Part shown: positions 4,382-58,146 of the stretch, one piece after another
How the letters are laid out: the number at the start of each line of letters is the position of its first letter
Position numbering within the stretch: the stretch's first letter is position 1
Assembly (NCBI GenBank): GCA_043812955.1
Contig: JBDRLN010000061.1
Coordinates: 7,231-71,230 of the forward strand
Source: Candidatus Omnitrophota bacterium
Lineage (GTDB): Bacteria > Omnitrophota > Gorgyraeia > Gygaellales > Profunditerraquicolaceae
Direction: 5' to 3'
DNA length: 64,000 nt
Made by a program: the position numbers and the translations under genes
Notes under the pieces: generated by a model
Seen by the model: the letters and a program-made list of their open reading frames with translations, nothing else
What the model was told of the DNA's origin: nothing
The model's database searches: none

Positions 4382-4408
4382 AATTCTCTACCTATACCTG
4401 TAAGATAT

Positions 4409-4463
4409 GGGGTCAGAATTATTTTTTACTTACATTTAGAATAAAAAAAATAATTCTGACCCC
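4409..4463. repeat. Family-A palindromic element, copy 2 (perfect 19-bp arms)
   Basis: GGGGTCAGAATTATTTTTT (4409-4427), a 17-nt loop, AAAAAATAATTCTGACCCC (4445-4463). It lies between the icd-like stop and the mdh start. Confidence 0.85.
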
Positions 4464-29232: not shown

Positions 29233-29240
29233 ATTTTTCC

Positions 29241-29313
29241 GGGACGGTTCTCAAACCAAAGCTAAAGTGTCCCTTTTTTGGGGACAGTTTAAGATCAGTT
29301 TCAGAACCGTCCC
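29241..29313 (-). repeat. Family-G nested hairpin element, copy 1 (outer GGGACGGTTCT/AGAACCGTCCC, inner TGTCCC-tttttt-GGGACA)
   Basis: It fills the rpsG-fusA spacer (29233-29325) and ends 8 nt before the fusA ATG. Its homologue at 55376-55448 is about 85% identical. Confidence 0.8.
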
Positions 29314-29325
29314 TGCATTTAAAAT

Positions 29326-53421: not shown

Positions 53422-54192
53422 TTATATTCGCATTTCTACTCCCTTACTGCGCAGATATTCTTTAACCTGTTTAATGCTAAATTCTCCGTAATGAAAAAGC
53501 GAAGCGGCCAAACAGGCATCCGCGCCAGCCTTATCTAAAATATCAAAAAAATGCTCCATTTTTCCCGCGCCGCCTGAAGCTATAATCGGGATGTTTACAC
53601 TATCGCTGACTGCCTTGGTTAAATCCAGATCATAGCCTTCCTTAGTGCCGTCATAATCCATACTAGTCAAAAGTATCTCGCCCGCACCTAATTCCGCAGC
53701 CTGTTTAGCCCAATTTACAGCATCCAGGTCAACAGGCGTTCTTCCGCCATTAATAAACACTTCCCACCCAGCCTCTGCGTGCAGGGGCCGGGTCTTTTTA
53801 GCGTCTATAGCGACAACAATACACTGGCTGCCGAATCTATCCGACGCCTCTTTAATCAATCCCGGATATTTAACTGCCGCGCTATTTATCGAAACTTTAT
53901 CCGCTCCGGCATTTAACAGGTCCCGGATATCGTTAATATCCCGTATGCCTCCGCCGACAGTAAAAGGCATAAATATATTTATGGCTATATCTTTCACTAA
54001 ATCAATCAGCGTCTTCCTATTTTCAAAACTGGCGGTAATATCTAGAAAAACCAGTTCATCCGCCTGCTGACAATCATAAACCCTAGCTACTTCTACAGGA
54101 TCACCAGCGTCACGCAGGCCTAAAAATTTTATCCCCTTGACTACCCTGCCATCTTTTATATCCAAACAGGGAATAATACGCTTAGTTAACAT
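53422..54192 (-). CDS. hisF: Imidazole glycerol phosphate synthase cyclase subunit
   Basis: 256 aa, [14 protein letters not shown]... Confidence 0.9.
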
Positions 54193-54625
54193 GCGCCTTT
54201 AACAACTCCCAGGTTTTTTTGCCTACCTTGCCGTCAGCATGCAGATTGTTAGCTTTTTGAAAATTTTTAATCGCCTCTACAGTATTCTTTCCGATCTTCC
54301 CGTCAATATTGCCATTATAAAAATTGGCATTCTTTAAAGCAGTCTGGATCGCCTTAGGGGTGGGGCGAATTTTAATCTTGAGGTCAGCTTTCTCAATAGA
54401 GAAACTTTTGACTGCCACTTCTTTTTCTGCGCTAGCCTTATTCAGGGCTTCTTTTAAATCATAAATCTCTTGATCCTTTTCTTTAAGCCTGGTCTCTAAA
54501 ACCCTAATCTGATTTTTCAAACCCTGTGACTCTAAGCCCGGTTTTCTGCCCATAGTAGCACAGCCACTGATTAAAACTAGAATAAAACCACAGATTAAAA
54601 ACATAACACCTTTCACCCTAAGCAT
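54182..54625 (-). CDS. Small lipoprotein with coiled-coil segment and C-terminal peptidoglycan-binding (PG_binding_1-like) domain
   Basis: 147 aa. LVLISGC lipobox. C-terminal [39 protein letters not shown]. It is embedded between hisA and hisF and overlaps hisF by 11 nt. Confidence 0.7.
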
Positions 54626-54636
54626 ATTCTCACCCC

Positions 54637-55359
54637 CTATTTTAATCTCAAGGCCTGTCTTAAAATAAGCTTCTGCTCATATAAAGCCTTGCCTATTATT
54701 ATTCCGGTCAAACCAAACTTCTCTAGTTTTTTTAAACCAGCTACATCTTTAAGACAGGAAACGCCACCTGAAGCAATAACTCCTATTCTCGATTTTTGCA
54801 TAAGATCTTTTATGCCCCGCGTATTCGGGCCCTTAAGCATACCATCTTTTGATGTATCGGTATAAATAATTTCTTTAAACCGTAAACCTTTTAAATATAC
54901 GGCAAAGGTCAACAGGTCAAATCCCTTACATGTCCCTTTCCACCCCCTAGTTTTTATCCGGCTCCCTTTAGCGTCAATACTAACAATAATCCGGGACCCA
55001 AACTTATTACAAGCTTCTTTTAAGAAATCCCTATCCTCAATTGCCCTGGTCCCTAAAACCACCCGGTATACGCCAAAATTAAGCAATTCTTTTATTGTCT
55101 GAATATTTCTTACTCCGCCGCCAAATTCAACCGGTATATTTACGGAATTTAATATTTTCTTTAATAGCGACTTATTCTTAAGGACGCCGGAAAAAGCTCC
55201 GTCTAAATCCACCACGTGCAATAATTTAGCCCCCTGCCTTTCCCAACCTAAAGCGATCTCACAGGGATCCTGAGAATATTCAACCTTATCTTTAACCTTG
55301 CCCTGGCATAGCCTTACTACACAACCGTCTTTTAAATCTATTGCCGGTATTATTAGCAT
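54637..55359 (-). CDS. hisA: ProFAR isomerase HisA
   Basis: 240 aa, MLIIPAIDLKDGCVVRL... Confidence 0.9.
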   Translation of the reverse strand: MLIIPAIDLKDGCVVRLCQGKVKDKVEYSQDPCEIALGWERQGAKLLHVVDLDGAFSGVLKNKSLLKKILNSVNIPVEFGGGVRNIQTIKELLNFGVYRVVLGTRAIEDRDFLKEACNKFGSRIIVSIDAKGSRIKTRGWKGTCKGFDLLTFAVYLKGLRFKEIIYTDTSKDGMLKGPNTRGIKDLMQKSRIGVIASGGVSCLKDVAGLKKLEKFGLTGIIIGKALYEQKLILRQALRLK

Positions 55360-55375
55360 ATTTCCATATCAGGCA

Positions 55376-55448
55376 GGGACGGTTCTCAAGCCAAAGCTAA
55401 ACTGTCCCCAAAAAAGGGACACTTTAAGATCAAGTTAAGAACCGTCCC
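55376..55448 (-). repeat. Family-G nested hairpin element, copy 2 (central palindrome inverted relative to copy 1)
   Basis: The outer GGGACGGTTCT / AGAACCGTCCC arms match copy 1. The centre reads TGTCCCCAAAAAAGGGACA, against TGTCCCTTTTTTGGGGACA in copy 1. It fills the hisH-hisA spacer. Confidence 0.8.
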
Positions 55449-55454
55449 TGCATT

Positions 55455-56105
55455 TTATAATTCAACGAAGTTTTTCAATATTTTCAGTCCCACAGCCTGG
55501 CTTTTCTCAGGATGAAACTGCACACCGATTATATTATCCTGCCAGACCACAGAAGCAAAATTAATCCCATAATCAGTAGTGGCGGCAACTACGGCTTTAT
55601 CCTCAGGCTGCGGATAATAAGAATGGCAGAAATAAACATAAGGCTTCTCTGACAGCCCCCTTAATAACGGGCATTCCTTTATCCCTGGCCCCTTATCACC
55701 TTCCTGTCGCTGAGGCAGACTTATCCCTGTATTCAACTGGTTCCAACCCATATGCGGGACTTTTAAACCCCTACCAGGAACAAATTTTTTTACCTCTCCT
55801 CTTAATACTCCTAAGCCTTTAACGCCATTAGATTCTTCGCTAGTTTCAAATAACAGCTGCATGCCTAAACATATTCCTAAAAATATCTTCTTATGTTTTA
55901 TAGCATCAATAACAGCTGAAATTAAACCCTGCCTATCCATCTCGGATACAGCGTCAGCAAAAGCCCCCACACCGGGAAGGACTATCTTTTCGCATTTATT
56001 CAATACTTCAGGCTTATTAGTCAATAAAACCTTAGCGCCTAAAGACTTTAGAGCCTTTTGAACGCTATGGATGTTGCCCATTCCATAATCAATTATCCCG
56101 ATCAT
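55455..56105 (-). CDS. hisH: Imidazole glycerol phosphate synthase glutamine amidotransferase subunit
   Basis: 216 aa. GICLGMQLL catalytic Cys and the HPEKS motif. Confidence 0.9.
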   Translation of the reverse strand: MIGIIDYGMGNIHSVQKALKSLGAKVLLTNKPEVLNKCEKIVLPGVGAFADAVSEMDRQGLISAVIDAIKHKKIFLGICLGMQLLFETSEESNGVKGLGVLRGEVKKFVPGRGLKVPHMGWNQLNTGISLPQRQEGDKGPGIKECPLLRGLSEKPYVYFCHSYYPQPEDKAVVAATTDYGINFASVVWQDNIIGVQFHPEKSQAVGLKILKNFVEL

Positions 56106-56130
56106 TTTTTAATTATATTCCACAGATATA

Positions 56131-56200
56131 CACGGATGCAAAGAACGGATAAAAACGGATAATCCGTGGAGATCCGTTAATAAATCAGTGCAAATCCGTG
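56131..56200 (-). promoter_or_regulatory. Nested ACGGAT/ATCCGT palindrome array (3 direct + 3 inverted copies, roughly helically phased) in the hisB-hisH spacer
   Basis: CACGGAT(56131-56137), AACGGAT(56144-56150), ACGGATaATCCGT(56155-56167), ATCCGTT(56172-56178), ATCCGTG(56194-56200). Each 7-mer pairs with its mirror partner. Confidence 0.6.
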
Positions 56201-56210
56201 ACTTAATCAT

Positions 56211-56816
56211 TTAATCAATTATTCCTTTAGTGGAAGGAATACCCTTTCTACGCGGATCAATTTGGGTGGCCTGATCTAAAGCAATGCCCAAAGCCTTAAA
56301 TACTGGTTCTAAAATTGCGTGTAAATCCGGACTCGTGTTCTCTATTTTGATATTAAGATTTGCCCCTAACTGTTGCGCCAGCGATTCAAAAAAATGCTGA
56401 GCATATTCAGCTTTATATTTTTCTTTAATCTGCGCGCCAGTAAGTACGCCCGGAATGTCCGGGGTTAATTCAAGAGAAGACCGACCGCAGATATCAATCG
56501 TAACGTTAGCGGTTATGTTTTCCATCGGCGCCGAAGCAGAACCGATCCTCTTTATACCCTTTTTGTCTCCGAGCGCCCTTTTGAATGCCTGGCCCAAAAC
56601 GATTGCTACATCTTCATTGGTATGGTGTATATCTACTTTTAAATCGCCCTTAGCTTCAATTTCTAAATCAAAAAGCCCCCAAAAGGCAAATAATTCCAAC
56701 ATATGATCCAGAAAACCGATACCGGTATTGATTTTCGATTTCCCTGAGCCGTCGATATTTAACTTTAGGTTTATATCAGTTTCTTTTGTCTTTCTCTTTA
56801 TCCCGGCTTTTCTCAT
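56211..56816 (-). CDS. hisB: Imidazoleglycerol-phosphate dehydratase
   Basis: The start is set at the internal ATG 56814-56816, with AGGAGA 5 nt upstream. The product begins MRKAGIKRKTKETDINLKLNIDG. Motifs HHTNEDVAI and GIGFLDHML. The track's 13-aa extension has no SD. Confidence 0.85.
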   Translation of the reverse strand: MRKAGIKRKTKETDINLKLNIDGSGKSKINTGIGFLDHMLELFAFWGLFDLEIEAKGDLKVDIHHTNEDVAIVLGQAFKRALGDKKGIKRIGSASAPMENITANVTIDICGRSSLELTPDIPGVLTGAQIKEKYKAEYAQHFFESLAQQLGANLNIKIENTSPDLHAILEPVFKALGIALDQATQIDPRRKGIPSTKGIID

Positions 56817-56919
56817 TCTATCTCCTTGAGCACCAATATACGCCGTCAGGCGCATCTAGCGAAATCCTACGAAACCCGTTACATATATAATCCGAATCTT
56901 AGGGCGTAGTAGGATCATA

Positions 56920-58146
56920 TTACTCAAACCTGGCTTTAACCGATTCCAAATGCTGACCTAATCCTTCAATACTGGCAATTTTCTCCAGAGGCTCTCTTAA
57001 TTTCTCTAAATATTTTTTAGAATAGCCAATGACATGACTGCTTTTTACAAAATCCACGGCTGATAAACCGGAGAAAAATCTGGCAGTCCCTCCGGTTGGC
57101 AATACATGGCTTGGGCCGGCAACATAATCACCGATAGCTGTCGGGCTATATGGCCCCAGAAAAATTGCTCCGGCATTACGGATACCTTTTAATAAACGCT
57201 GGTAATTCTTTACTAGGATCTCTAAATGTTCCGGGGCAATCCTATTAGAAATCTCTACTGCTTCATCCAAATTTTTAGTTAAGATTATAAACCCGTTTAC
57301 ATCAACAGCCTTTGCTTTTATCTCCTTAGCTAAACCTTTAGAATTTGTAACCAGTATAGCCAGGCCATTAACGTGCTCGGCCTGGGCTTTTAAGTCAGCG
57401 ATAATGAATTTCGGGTCGCTGGAACGATTAGCGATTATTACCAGCTCAGTTGGTCCGGCGATCATATCAATATCCACCTGGCCAAAAACCTGCCGCTTTG
57501 CTTCATTAACATAAACATTACCAGGGCCGACGATTTTATCTACCCTGGGTATCGTCTTGGTCCCGTAAGCTAAAGCGGCTATCCCCTGAGCCCCGCCTAT
57601 CCGGTAGATCTCATCAACTTTTAAAAGATTAGCTACTACTAAAATATGAGGATTAATAAACCCTTGTTTATTCGGAGGGCTGATTAACACTATTTTTTTA
57701 ACTCCTGCGATTTTAGCCGGAAGCACAGTCATATAAACCGTAGAGACCAAAGGCGCCGTGCCTGCCGGTATATAAACCCCTAATTTATCGATTGGCTGGT
57801 AATTCTCCCCCAGGATTAAGCCTTCGCTGTCTTTTATCCTCCAAGATTTTTTCAGGGTCCTGCGGTAAAAACGATTGATATTATCAATGATTATTTTGAG
57901 GCTAGAGACAAAATTCGGGCTGATATTCTGGTAGGCGCCACTGACTTCGATAGCTGAAACCTTAATCTGACGGCCGGTTAACTTCACCTTGTCAAATTTA
58001 CGGGTATATTTTAAAACCGCTTCATCGCCCAGCAGGCGAACGTCATCGATTATCTGCCTAACCTTGTCTTCTACCCTCCTGGAACGGATTAGCCCCCGGT
58101 TATAAATCTTTTCTAATTTTTGGGAGTTCGAGCGGATTATCTTCAC
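56920..58146 (-). CDS. hisD: Histidinol dehydrogenase (GTG start)
   Basis: 408 aa. Start GTGAAGATA, preceded by GAAGGTGCGGG, the same module as rpmC. Confidence 0.85.
   Translation of the reverse strand: MKIIRSNSQKLEKIYNRGLIRSRRVEDKVRQIIDDVRLLGDEAVLKYTRKFDKVKLTGRQIKVSAIEVSGAYQNISPNFVSSLKIIIDNINRFYRRTLKKSWRIKDSEGLILGENYQPIDKLGVYIPAGTAPLVSTVYMTVLPAKIAGVKKIVLISPPNKQGFINPHILVVANLLKVDEIYRIGGAQGIAALAYGTKTIPRVDKIVGPGNVYVNEAKRQVFGQVDIDMIAGPTELVIIANRSSDPKFIIADLKAQAEHVNGLAILVTNSKGLAKEIKAKAVDVNGFIILTKNLDEAVEISNRIAPEHLEILVKNYQRLLKGIRNAGAIFLGPYSPTAIGDYVAGPSHVLPTGGTARFFSGLSAVDFVKSSHVIGYSKKYLEKLREPLEKIASIEGLGQHLESVKARFE

What the first reader, a model, noticed from the sequence alone, without database searches (positions are those of the whole stretch)
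56131..56200. Helically phased nested ACGGAT / ATCCGT palindrome array between hisB and hisH
The region contains three direct CGGAT cores at 56133, 56146 and 56156 (spacing 13 and 10). They are followed by three inverted ATCCG cores at 56162, 56172 and 56194 (spacing 10 and 22).

Each 7-mer is the exact complement of its mirror partner: CACGGAT with ATCCGTG, AACGGAT with ATCCGTT, and ACGGAT-a-ATCCGT.

As RNA this folds into a rod of three stacked 6-7-bp helices. As DNA it looks like an iteron-like array of half-sites on one helical face.

It sits inside an operon, where neither a promoter nor an operator is expected. I do not recognise the motif as a known operator.
Basis: seen in the sequence. 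Interest (0 to 1): 0.6.

Follow-up and report, generated by a model that had tools for sequence, protein, structure and literature searches.

The report
Gene-less copy of a hairpin repeat
The odd palindrome between hisB and hisH is not a histidine operator but an inserted copy of a hairpin-forming repeat found in at least eight bacterial phyla. The two arms of the same repeat also bracket genes for a small uncharacterised nuclease (GxxExxY).

Summary
Window 56114-56207 holds 4+4 units (CACAGAT, CACGGAT, AACGGAT, AACGGAT | ATCCGTG, ATCCGTT, ATCAGTG, ATCCGTG), and the spacer RNA folds at -32.6 kcal/mol (z = -5.6).

It is a lineage-specific insertion. Relatives with 76-79% HisH identity have the hisB stop abutting the hisH ATG. 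Only the nearest relative (81%) shares the element.

The canonical form is an 85-nt palindrome, ATAGAAC-(CRCGGAT)x4 | (ATCCGYG)x4-GTTCTAT. It is intergenic, mostly downstream of genes, several per genome, and 17 of 33 stem pairs covary.

A covariance model built only from other phyla hits the window element full length (37.8 bits, E = 1.5e-6) and nothing else in the 64 kb. No Rfam family matches.

The same arms bracket GxxExxY (PF13366, PD-(D/E)XK) nuclease genes, or full palindromes flank them, in about 13 of 15 loci examined.

Best reading: a non-autonomous, MITE/REP-like copy of a nuclease-associated hairpin element that forms a long hairpin in the his mRNA. It is not an operator. How it moves is inferred, not shown.

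The parts
56114..56207 (-). The whole element: an imperfect 94-nt palindrome of 4+4 iterated units. It is a gene-less member of the CGGAT-iterated hairpin repeat family.
   Evidence: Full-length match (model positions 1-87) to covariance model R1, built from 24 copies of other phyla: 37.8 bits, E = 1.5e-6 on the minus strand and 33.2 bits on the plus strand. It is the only match in the window. Fold.
56121..56127 (+). Unit 1, CACAGAT (degenerate core). It pairs with 56194-56200 through a G.U pair on the transcribed strand.
56131..56137 (+). Unit 2, CACGGAT
56144..56150 (+). Unit 3, AACGGAT
56154..56160 (+). Unit 4, AACGGAT. It forms the apical helix with 56162-56168.
56162..56168 (+). Unit 5, ATCCGTG (inverted)
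56172..56178 (+). Unit 6, ATCCGTT (inverted)
56184..56190 (+). Unit 7, ATCAGTG (inverted, degenerate core).
   Evidence: (D1)
56194..56200 (+). Unit 8, ATCCGTG (inverted)
56206..56210 (-). Relic ATGAT: the ancestral hisH start codon still abutting the hisB stop. It is one copy of the 5-nt duplication that flanks the insertion.
   Evidence: Alignment with relatives that lack the element; translation
56101..56105 (-). The second ATGAT, which is the present hisH start
56109..56210 (-). A 33-codon ORF that starts at the relic ATG, reads through the whole hairpin and stops (TAA) 3 nt before the hisH ATG. Its translation is inferred, not shown.
   Evidence: MIKSRICTDLLTDLHGLSVFIRSLHPCISVEYN*. L001 has a 30-codon counterpart.
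56211..56855 (-). hisB (imidazoleglycerol-phosphate dehydratase), the upstream cistron
   Evidence: Pfam IGPD on the L001 and L002 orthologues
55455..56105 (-). hisH, the downstream cistron

Best explanation
**What it is.** Window 56114-56207 is a gene-less copy of a widespread palindromic repeat. Each arm carries about four iterated CRCGGAT units with a 9-13 nt period, and the two arms pair into one long hairpin.

**Shown.**
- It was inserted at the once-abutting hisB-stop/hisH-start junction in the common ancestor of this Omnitrophota MAG and its nearest relative. The insertion left a duplicated ATGAT.
- The family is dispersed in intergenic DNA, mostly downstream of genes, in many phyla.
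- The same arms bracket, or full palindromes flank, genes for the small GxxExxY PD-(D/E)XK nuclease.

**Inferred.**
- The short palindromes are non-autonomous (MITE/REP-like) derivatives or remnants of a selfish unit of the form arm - nuclease ORF - arm.
- The conserved CGGAT units are protein recognition sites, and the arm-to-arm pairing is needed as a DNA or RNA hairpin.
- In the his transcript the element forms a hairpin of about 35 bp after hisB. This hairpin may protect or process the mRNA.
- hisH translation is kept going because the relic start codon, which retains the ancestral ribosome-binding region, drives a 33-codon ORF through the hairpin that ends 3 nt before the hisH ATG.

It is not a histidine-specific operator.
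For: **Insertion.** L002-L005 (HisH 76% identical) and L006 (79%) have no spacer. L001 (81%) has the homologous element plus a 21-nt central insert.

**Family.**
- The canonical 85-87-nt form is shown.
- 17 of 33 stem pairs show compensatory changes.
- Model R1 contains no Omnitrophota sequence, yet it hits the window element full length at 37.8 bits and nothing else in the 64 kb.
- Other Omnitrophota copies lie between argJ and argB (L034) and between rplL and rpoB (L110).

**Context.** Flanking gene orientations are tandem 47, convergent 19 and divergent 7. No neighbouring gene recurs.

**Nuclease link.**
- The ORF sits exactly in the loop in L130, L140, L150, L153 and L155.
- Inverted arms bracket the ORF in Treponema and Bernardetia plasmids.
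- Full palindromes lie next to the gene in L079, L105, L154, L158, L159 and L161.
- 10 of 15 GxxExxY genes exceed the 95th percentile of 243 control ORFs for an upstream/downstream inverted match.
- The predicted structure has a PD-(D/E)XK fold, and D66, E76 and K78 are invariant.

**Constraint.** Window and L001 elements are 80% identical, against 65% at four-fold degenerate sites of the his genes.
Against: - Only one copy lies in the 64-kb window, and no GxxExxY ORF is in the window or in the Omnitrophota loci held. A local partner nuclease is therefore unproven.
- The window copy lacks a clean ATAGAAC tag, and its unit 2-3 spacing (12-13 nt) is longer than the canonical 9 nt.
- Canonical copies show no target-site duplication. 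The ATGAT duplication may not be a transposition signature.
- Window and L001 differ by one-sided changes that weaken some helices, with no compensatory pairs. Selection on the structure in this lineage looks weak.
- Across the family there is no clear preference for G.U pairs on the sense strand (mean ddG -1.25 kcal/mol, p = 0.08). An RNA-level role is not demonstrated.
- Two of 15 GxxExxY loci (L160, L162) are ambiguous.
Confidence: 0.72

Rival explanations
1. It is a REP/REPIN in the strict sense: a hairpin repeat mobilised by a RAYT (TnpA_REP, HuH-Y1) transposase. The ATAG tag would play the role of GTAG.
For: - The location bias matches that reported for REPs (PMC3733652).
- The canonical ends ATAGAMC-RCGGAT resemble the E. 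coli REP GTAGGCCGGAT...ATCCGGC. I verified that REP at 40 or more copies per genome (the search's counting limit) in all 5,426 E. coli genomes.
- They also resemble RAYT-flanking hairpins listed by Quentin et al. 2018: GTAGCACAGATTAGTAATCTGTGCTAC from Ignavibacterium and GTTCCAGCGGATTTATAATCCGCTG from Bacteroides xylanisolvens.
- Canonical copies show no target-site duplication.
- Tandem clusters exist (L028, L045, L046).
Against: - Stems run to about 35-40 bp built from iterated units, against 6-13 bp for REPs.
- The tag is paired with its own complement and begins with A rather than G.
- A motif search found no HuH/Y1 ORF in the window or in the ~120 pattern-scan loci, apart from one weak, doubtful motif match in L054.
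- The recurrent protein partner found is a PD-(D/E)XK nuclease, not a Y1 enzyme.
- The class 3 hairpins with a CnGA foot, reported for Acidobacteria and Planctomycetes, have a different sequence.
Confidence: 0.15
2. It is an exapted, functional RNA hairpin of the his operon. Whatever its origin, it would now be kept because it sets the hisB:hisH expression ratio, as an RNase III site, a 3'-end stabiliser or a brake on translational coupling.
For: - The fold is strong (z = -5.6).
- The transcribed strand folds better than the other strand: 37.8 against 33.2 bits, -31.0 against -27.4 kcal/mol, and 5 against 1 G.U pairs.
- The element is more conserved between the window and L001 (80%) than four-fold sites (65%).
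- Both spacers are multiples of 3 (105 and 126 nt), with an open relic ORF.
- Other copies sit at classic intercistronic positions (argJ-argB, rplL-rpoB, sdhA-sdhB).
Against: - Close relatives manage without it.
- The substitutions between the window and L001 are not compensatory, and two helices carry mismatches.
- L001 tolerates a 21-nt apical insertion.
- The family as a whole shows no significant sense-strand bias.
Confidence: 0.25
3. It is a scar of a lost GxxExxY cassette. A complete arm-ORF-arm unit inserted between hisB and hisH, and the ORF was later deleted, leaving the joined arms.
For: - In ORF-bearing units the ORF replaces precisely the loop: CGGATTT|ATG...TAA|ATCCG.
- ORF-less loops read TTA or TAA, which is compatible with a clean deletion of the ORF.
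- GxxExxY units insert within operons.
Against: - No ORF remnant is present in the window or in L001.
- ORF-less copies far outnumber ORF-bearing ones in the loci sampled. Only two full GxxExxY ORFs (L079, L105) and one partial one at a locus edge (L013) were found in ~940 kb that holds more than 120 palindromes.
Confidence: 0.2
4. It is a DNA operator or iteron array for a his-specific or global regulator, or an internal promoter.
For: The half-sites are repeated with a period of roughly 10 bp and two-fold symmetry.
Against: - The element is absent from orthologous his operons.
- There is no second site in the 64 kb.
- No promoter-like hexamers lie within 55000-57500.
- The spacers between units covary to keep the arms paired. 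That is expected for a hairpin, not for a protein-read duplex site.
- The same array occurs in unrelated contexts in many phyla.
Confidence: 0.03

Closest known systems
REP / REPIN elements (GTAG-tagged repetitive extragenic palindromes mobilised by RAYT transposases)
   Same: - Both are short intergenic palindromes, multi-copy, found mainly between tandem or convergent genes, and sometimes in tandem clusters.
- Both have a tag resembling RTAG next to a stem that contains CGGAT/ATCCG.
- Both form hairpins in mRNA 3' regions.
- Sources.
   Different: - The hairpin here is much longer (85-94 nt) and is built from 2-4 iterated 9-10-nt units per arm.
- The tag is ATAG and is base-paired.
- No RAYT was found.
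- The protein partner found is a PD-(D/E)XK nuclease whose ORF sits in the loop.
MITEs (miniature inverted-repeat transposable elements)
   Same: - Both are non-coding, with terminal inverted arms shared with a longer protein-coding unit.
- Both show presence/absence polymorphism between close relatives.
- The window copy has a 5-nt flanking duplication.
- Sources.
   Different: - The coding partner is not a recognised transposase.
- Canonical copies show no target-site duplication.
- The arms meet, so the whole element is one hairpin.
Free-standing or intron-borne homing endonuclease genes, including the PD-(D/E)XK enzyme I-Ssp6803I (from my own knowledge)
   Same: In both, a small nuclease ORF is embedded in the middle of a conserved sequence that also exists without the ORF. 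The gene phylogeny is reported as 'multiple transfers' (PMC3424549).
   Different: - Nothing here shows cleavage of the ORF-less form.
- ORF-less copies insert at sites that held no such sequence before (hisB|hisH). Simple homing does not explain that.
23S rRNA intervening sequences, which have long RNase III-cleaved stems with a small ORF in the loop (from my own knowledge)
   Same: Both have a long stem with a small selfish ORF in the loop, inserted into essential transcription units.
   Different: The elements here are not in rRNA. The ORF family differs, and RNase III processing has not been tested.

Membership tests
CGGAT-iterated hairpin repeat family (defined here; model R1) | Full-length match to a covariance model built from canonical copies of other phyla | tested here: met
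   Window 56114-56207 matches model positions 1-87 at 37.8 bits, E = 1.5e-6. It is the only hit in 64 kb.
CGGAT-iterated hairpin repeat family (defined here; model R1) | 4+4 (or 2+2, 3+3) CRCGGAT / ATCCGYG units, with CGGAT always on the 5' arm, at a period of about 9-10 nt | tested here: met
   Eight units are present, six of them exact. The orientation is >>>><<<<, as in the family. The spacing of 10, 12-13, 10 is looser than the canonical 9-10, 9, 10.
CGGAT-iterated hairpin repeat family (defined here; model R1) | Outer tag (G)AATAGAMC ... GKTCTATT(C) | tested here: inconclusive
   The window has TTAAGTC on one side and GGAATAT on the other, which is only a partial resemblance.
CGGAT-iterated hairpin repeat family (defined here; model R1) | Several copies in the same genome | not testable with these tools
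   There is one copy in the 64-kb window, and the rest of the MAG is not available. Other genomes hold 4-8 or more copies among the loci fetched.
REP/REPIN with RAYT | Short stem-loop (stem 6-13 bp) with an unpaired 5' GTAG-type tag | tested here: not met
   The element is a 94-nt composite hairpin with no GTAG. Canonical relatives carry a paired ATAG.
REP/REPIN with RAYT | A cognate HuH-Y1 (RAYT) gene flanked by the repeats | tested here: inconclusive
   A motif search of all ORFs in the window and in the ~120 pattern-scan loci found none, apart from one weak, doubtful motif match in L054. Whole genomes were not searched.
REP/REPIN with RAYT | Location mainly between tandem or convergent genes | tested here: met
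   Tandem 47, convergent 19, divergent 7.
MITE | Terminal inverted repeats shared with a longer coding element | tested here: met
   The arms bracket GxxExxY ORFs. That protein is not a known transposase.
MITE | Target-site duplication | tested here: inconclusive
   ATGAT is duplicated in the window, and ATGATA in L001. None is seen at 20 canonical copies.
MITE | Presence/absence polymorphism at orthologous sites | tested here: met
   The window and L001 carry the element. L002-L006 have an empty junction.
Transcription-factor operator / iteron array | Conserved at the orthologous regulatory position, and recurring at other targets in the genome | tested here: not met
   It is absent in L002-L006. 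There is no other cluster in the window and no promoter-like site nearby.
Any Rfam family (including TwoAYGGAY and known his leaders) | Match at or near the family's gathering score | tested here: not met
   There is no match with E up to 10 in 55900-56400 and none at gathering score in the window or in 18 canonical loci. A canonical copy gives only generic sub-threshold miRNA-hairpin matches.
CsrA/RsmA binding sites (A(N)GGA in hairpin loops) | GGA motifs exposed in loops or single-stranded stretches | tested here: not met
   Every ACGGAU is sequestered in a stem by its exact complement.
Intrinsic terminator | GC-rich stem directly followed by a U tract | tested here: not met
   Only the 5-bp apical hairpin is followed by UUUUU. 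The full rod is followed by GGAAUAUAAUU.

The most novel reading that the evidence does not exclude
The CGGAT-iterated hairpins and the GxxExxY (PF13366/TIGR04256) PD-(D/E)XK nucleases together form a previously unrecognised class of selfish element that spans at least eight phyla.

- The nuclease ORF sits in the loop of a long hairpin whose arms carry its iterated recognition units.
- Gene-less hairpins, like the one in this his operon, are its non-autonomous copies, moved or maintained in trans by the nuclease.

If true, this would give a function to a large 'unknown' protein family and define a new way of mobilising repeats in bacteria.
Probability: 0.35. Interest if true: 0.8.

Novelty: new variant of a known kind. 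Interest (0 to 1): 0.6.

Why it matters
For this window, the result removes a tempting false lead. There is no hidden histidine operator. A mobile hairpin split two formerly coupled cistrons.

More broadly, the element led to a repeat family that Rfam does not hold and that I could not find described in the searchable literature. The family has an unusual iterated architecture conserved from Omnitrophota to Acidobacteriota, Planctomycetota, Chloroflexota, Bacteroidota, Gemmatimonadota and Spirochaetota.

The family is physically tied to GxxExxY nuclease genes, whose function is listed as unknown. That makes a concrete hypothesis testable with purified protein and synthetic hairpins: the nuclease recognises CGGAT-iterated hairpins.

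Such elements sit inside operons (his, arg, rplL-rpoB, sdh). They may therefore commonly reshape mRNA processing and translational coupling in poorly studied phyla.

Tried and rejected
- **Rfam.** I searched at gathering and permissive thresholds on the window, on the element and on 18 canonical loci. Nothing relevant came back.
- **Literature searches by motif** (CACGGAT/ATCCGTG, CGGAT with palindrome, ACGGAU with hairpin). They returned only primers and unrelated hits.
- **Metagenome scan** with an Omnitrophota-specific pattern. It gave one chance hit inside a coding region (L128).
- **Viral contigs.** There was one pattern hit, which I did not pursue, and one GxxExxY locus.
- **CsrA sponge idea.** Rejected because every GGA is paired.
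- **DnaA-box resemblance** (TTATCCGTT against TTATCCACA). Considered from memory and dropped, because only ATCC is shared.
- **Class 3 HuH-Y1 'CnGA-foot' hairpins** of Acidobacteria and Planctomycetes. Their sequences are unrelated.
- **Recurrent neighbouring gene.** Clustering 506 flanking ORFs gave no common neighbour. Pfam on 54 adjacent small ORFs showed only housekeeping genes plus PDDEXK_3.
- **Sense versus antisense folding bias** across 65 copies. Not significant.
- **RAYT motif search.** Negative, apart from one weak, doubtful motif match in L054.

Full report
**1. The observation**

The window is a Candidatus Omnitrophota MAG: its HisH is 100% identical to an NCBI MAG protein. The genes run on the minus strand in the order alaS, hisD, hisB (56211-56855), a 105-nt spacer (56106-56210), hisH (55455-56105), hisA, a PG_binding lipoprotein gene, hisF, hisI.

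Six exact ACGGAT/ATCCGT hexamers fall within 68 bp, while the other 31 in the window are scattered. The Poisson probability is 1.7e-12, or about 1e-7 after correcting for positions.

Two degenerate units were missed: CACAGAT at 56121 and ATCAGTG at 56184. With them the array is 4+4 and nearly mirror-symmetric about 56161. The transcribed strand folds into a rod of four helices at -32.6 kcal/mol (z = -5.6 against shuffles).

**2. It is an insertion**

Relatives were fetched through HisH homologues.
- L002-L005 (76% identical) have hisB ending at the base before the hisH ATG.
- L006 (79%) has the two genes overlapping.
- Only L001 (81%) has a spacer, of 126 nt. It is the same element with a 21-nt extra hairpin at its centre.

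In the window the hisB stop is still followed at once by ATGAT, which is the ancestral hisH start. The present hisH starts with a second ATGAT after the element. From the relic ATG a 33-codon ORF reads through the hairpin and stops 3 nt before the hisH ATG. L001 has a 30-codon counterpart.

The neighbouring hisH-hisA spacer is a second lineage-specific insertion (see the items noticed in passing).

**3. It belongs to a large family**

I scanned one genome per species (185,579 species) for the central four units, CGGATN5CGGATN0-3ATCCGN5ATCCG. By my estimate about four hits would arise by chance.

- **Taxa.** The hits come from Acidobacteriota, Planctomycetota, Chloroflexota, Bacteroidota, Verrucomicrobiota, Omnitrophota, Armatimonadota, Proteobacteria and others. 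They include complete chromosomes, and a BLAST hit lies on a Runella slithyformis plasmid.
- **Outer units.** The search did not require the outer units, yet they are there. The canonical element is an 85-87-nt palindrome, (G)AATAGAMC-RCGGAT-N2-4-CRCGGAT-N4-CGGAT-N5-CGGAT-loop-mirror image.
- **Covariation.** The CGGAT cores are invariant, while the spacers differ between copies yet stay complementary between arms. 17 of 33 pairs show double changes.
- **Position.** Copies are intergenic, with flanking genes tandem (47), convergent (19) or, rarely, divergent (7). Some form tandem clusters (L028, L045, L046).
- **Objective test.** Covariance model R1, built from 24 canonical copies with no Omnitrophota sequence, hits window 56114-56207 over its full length (37.8 bits, E = 1.5e-6). 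It hits nothing else in the 64 kb.
- **Other Omnitrophota copies.** They lie between argJ and argB (L034) and between rplL and rpoB (L110).
- **Catalogue status.** Rfam holds no such family.

**4. DNA or RNA?**

I folded both strands of 65 copies whose sense strand could be assigned. The sense strand is only slightly more stable (mean -1.25 kcal/mol, p = 0.08; G.U pairs 170 against 152). The window copy itself favours the transcribed strand: 37.8 against 33.2 bits, and 5 against 1 G.U pairs.

Between the window and L001 the element is 80% identical, against 65% at four-fold degenerate sites of the his genes. The differences are one-sided and weaken some helices.

So arm pairing is clearly maintained across the family. 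Whether the relevant hairpin is DNA or RNA remains open.

**5. A protein partner**

Flanking genes are otherwise unrelated, but a PDDEXK_3 (PF13366; NCBIfam TIGR04256, 'GxxExxY protein') gene lay beside the element in L079 and L105. I followed this up by fetching GxxExxY genes by protein alone.

- **ORF in the loop.** In L130, L140 and L150 (three diverged versions of a locus between two glycosyltransferase genes), L153 (a viral contig) and L155, the ORF sits exactly in the loop. In L130 the upstream sequence is GGATAGAACGCTGATGACACCGAAAACGCAGATTTAAAACGGATTT|ATG. The reverse complement of the downstream sequence is GGATAGAACGCTGATGACACTGATGAAACTGATTTTAGCGGATTT.
- **Full palindromes beside the gene.** These occur in L154 (between sdhA and sdhB), L158, L159 and L161 (a Gemmatirosa plasmid).
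- **Inverted arms around the ORF.** These occur on Treponema and Bernardetia plasmids, where the protein is 36-38% identical to the query.
- **Control comparison.** Against 243 control ORFs, 10 of 15 GxxExxY genes exceed the 95th percentile for an upstream/downstream inverted match, and 6 exceed the 99th. Most of the remainder have a full palindrome alongside. Two loci (L160, L162) are ambiguous.
- **The protein.** Its model has pLDDT 87.8 and a PD-(D/E)XK fold. The nearest structures are Cas4, lambda-type exonucleases, Hjc and tRNA-splicing endonuclease. D66, E76 and K78 are invariant.
- **Literature.** The family is listed as 'unknown', with 'multiple transfers' (PMC3424549). 'GxxExxY' occurs only incidentally in three papers of the library.

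**6. Interpretation**

*Shown:* an inserted, gene-less member of a cross-phylum hairpin repeat family whose arms also bracket a nuclease gene.

*Inferred:*
- The short palindromes are non-autonomous copies or remnants of an arm-nuclease-arm unit.
- The CGGAT units are recognition sites.
- In the his mRNA the hairpin may stabilise or process the transcript.
- The relic ATG, which keeps the ancestral AAGGA region upstream, lets ribosomes unwind the hairpin and re-initiate at hisH.

No GxxExxY gene lies in the window or in the other Omnitrophota loci, so the local partner is unknown.

**7. Comparison with known systems**

The closest kinds are REP/REPIN elements and MITEs.

The resemblances to REPs are real: the location bias, tandem clusters, and an RTAG-like tag next to a CGGAT/ATCCG stem. 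The E. coli REP has the same features, and I verified it at 40 or more copies per genome (the search's counting limit) in all 5,426 E. coli genomes. Similar RAYT-flanking hairpins from Ignavibacterium and Bacteroides appear in Quentin et al. 2018, Table S1.

The defining features are not met. The stem is not short, there is no unpaired GTAG, and no RAYT was found.

The operator reading fails its tests.

**8. Verdict**

The specific element is an ordinary kind of thing, an inserted repeat, but it belongs to an apparently undescribed and widespread family with an unexpected nuclease partner.

Ratings: interest 0.6; novelty, new variant of a known kind.

Noticed in passing
window 55374-55450 and 29239-29315; L001 3635-3713: A second palindromic repeat family. 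It is 77 nt long, has 13-nt terminal inverted repeats (CAGGGACGGTTCT...AGAACCGTCCCTG) and an inner hairpin (GTGTCCCTTTTTTGGGGACAG).

One copy fills the hisH-hisA spacer, where relatives L002 and L006 have overlapping genes, with a GAAWTAT-like duplication at the flanks.

Its inner 51 nt are inverted between the window and L001: 47/51 identical in reverse orientation against 32/51 in the same orientation. After re-inversion the element is 95% identical, against 65% at four-fold sites. The 29-kb copy looks like a nested-inversion chimera.
   Followed up: partly
window 56109-56210 (minus strand); L001 2875-2967: The relic hisH start codon abuts the hisB stop and opens a 33-codon ORF (30 codons in L001) through the hairpin. 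The spacers are 105 and 126 nt, both multiples of 3, so hisB, the small ORF and hisH share one frame.
   Followed up: partly
L079 5903-5970, 5993-6388, 6372-6458 (also 4389-4456): In a groundwater Bacteroidota MAG a GxxExxY gene is flanked on both sides by nearly identical full palindromes whose 5' arms are identical. A third copy lies 1.5 kb upstream.
   Followed up: yes
L154 (ERZ26165376), L130/L140/L150, L159: GxxExxY units are inserted inside operons: between sdhA and sdhB, between two glycosyltransferase genes, and between an ABC ATPase gene and its FtsX-type permease gene. L159 carries a tandem partial second copy of arm plus ORF start.
   Followed up: partly
L057 612-726 and 6679-6825, L073 4488-4612, L033; L140/L150 flanks: Many elements are nested inside longer, copy-specific palindromes, with flanks such as CCGGCC...GGCCCGG or 28-nt unique stems. 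This suggests insertion into the loops of pre-existing hairpins, or homogenisation between the two arms.
   Followed up: no
L028 1497-1795, L045 3401-3554, L046 259-435: The element forms tandem arrays with periods of 92-134 nt.
   Followed up: no
L126 3489-3575 and 6458-6544, L030, L068 (OY970189.1); L155, L158; L164: Lineage-specific variants of the iterated unit keep the same architecture: CGGAG in a Planctomycetaceae chromosome, TCATGAT with GCAGAT in some Bacteroidota, and CACAGAGA in Bernardetia.
   Followed up: partly
L001 2173-2253 (hisD-hisB spacer): The relative's hisD-hisB spacer holds three more CGGAT units (CGCGGAT, AACGGAT, CACGGAT) and a CCTGCC...GGCAG-type hairpin like the 21-nt insert in its hisB-hisH element. 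The window's counterpart spacer is only weakly similar.
   Followed up: no
window 54182-54625 (minus strand): A 147-aa PG_binding_1 lipoprotein gene sits between hisA and hisF, overlapping hisF by 11 nt. It is conserved at this position in all relatives fetched.
   Followed up: no
window 56086-56099 and 56212-56225: A 14-nt direct repeat (TAATCAATTATCCC / TAATCAATTATTCC) brackets the spacer. It encodes the GIID peptide that ends HisB and begins HisH, and is also present in relatives without the element.
   Followed up: no
L109 (contig labelled 'uncultured archaeon LFW-280_4'), L129 (IMG/VR contig) 1937-1968: Canonical or partial copies occur on a contig labelled archaeal and on a viral contig. 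The labels were not checked.
   Followed up: no
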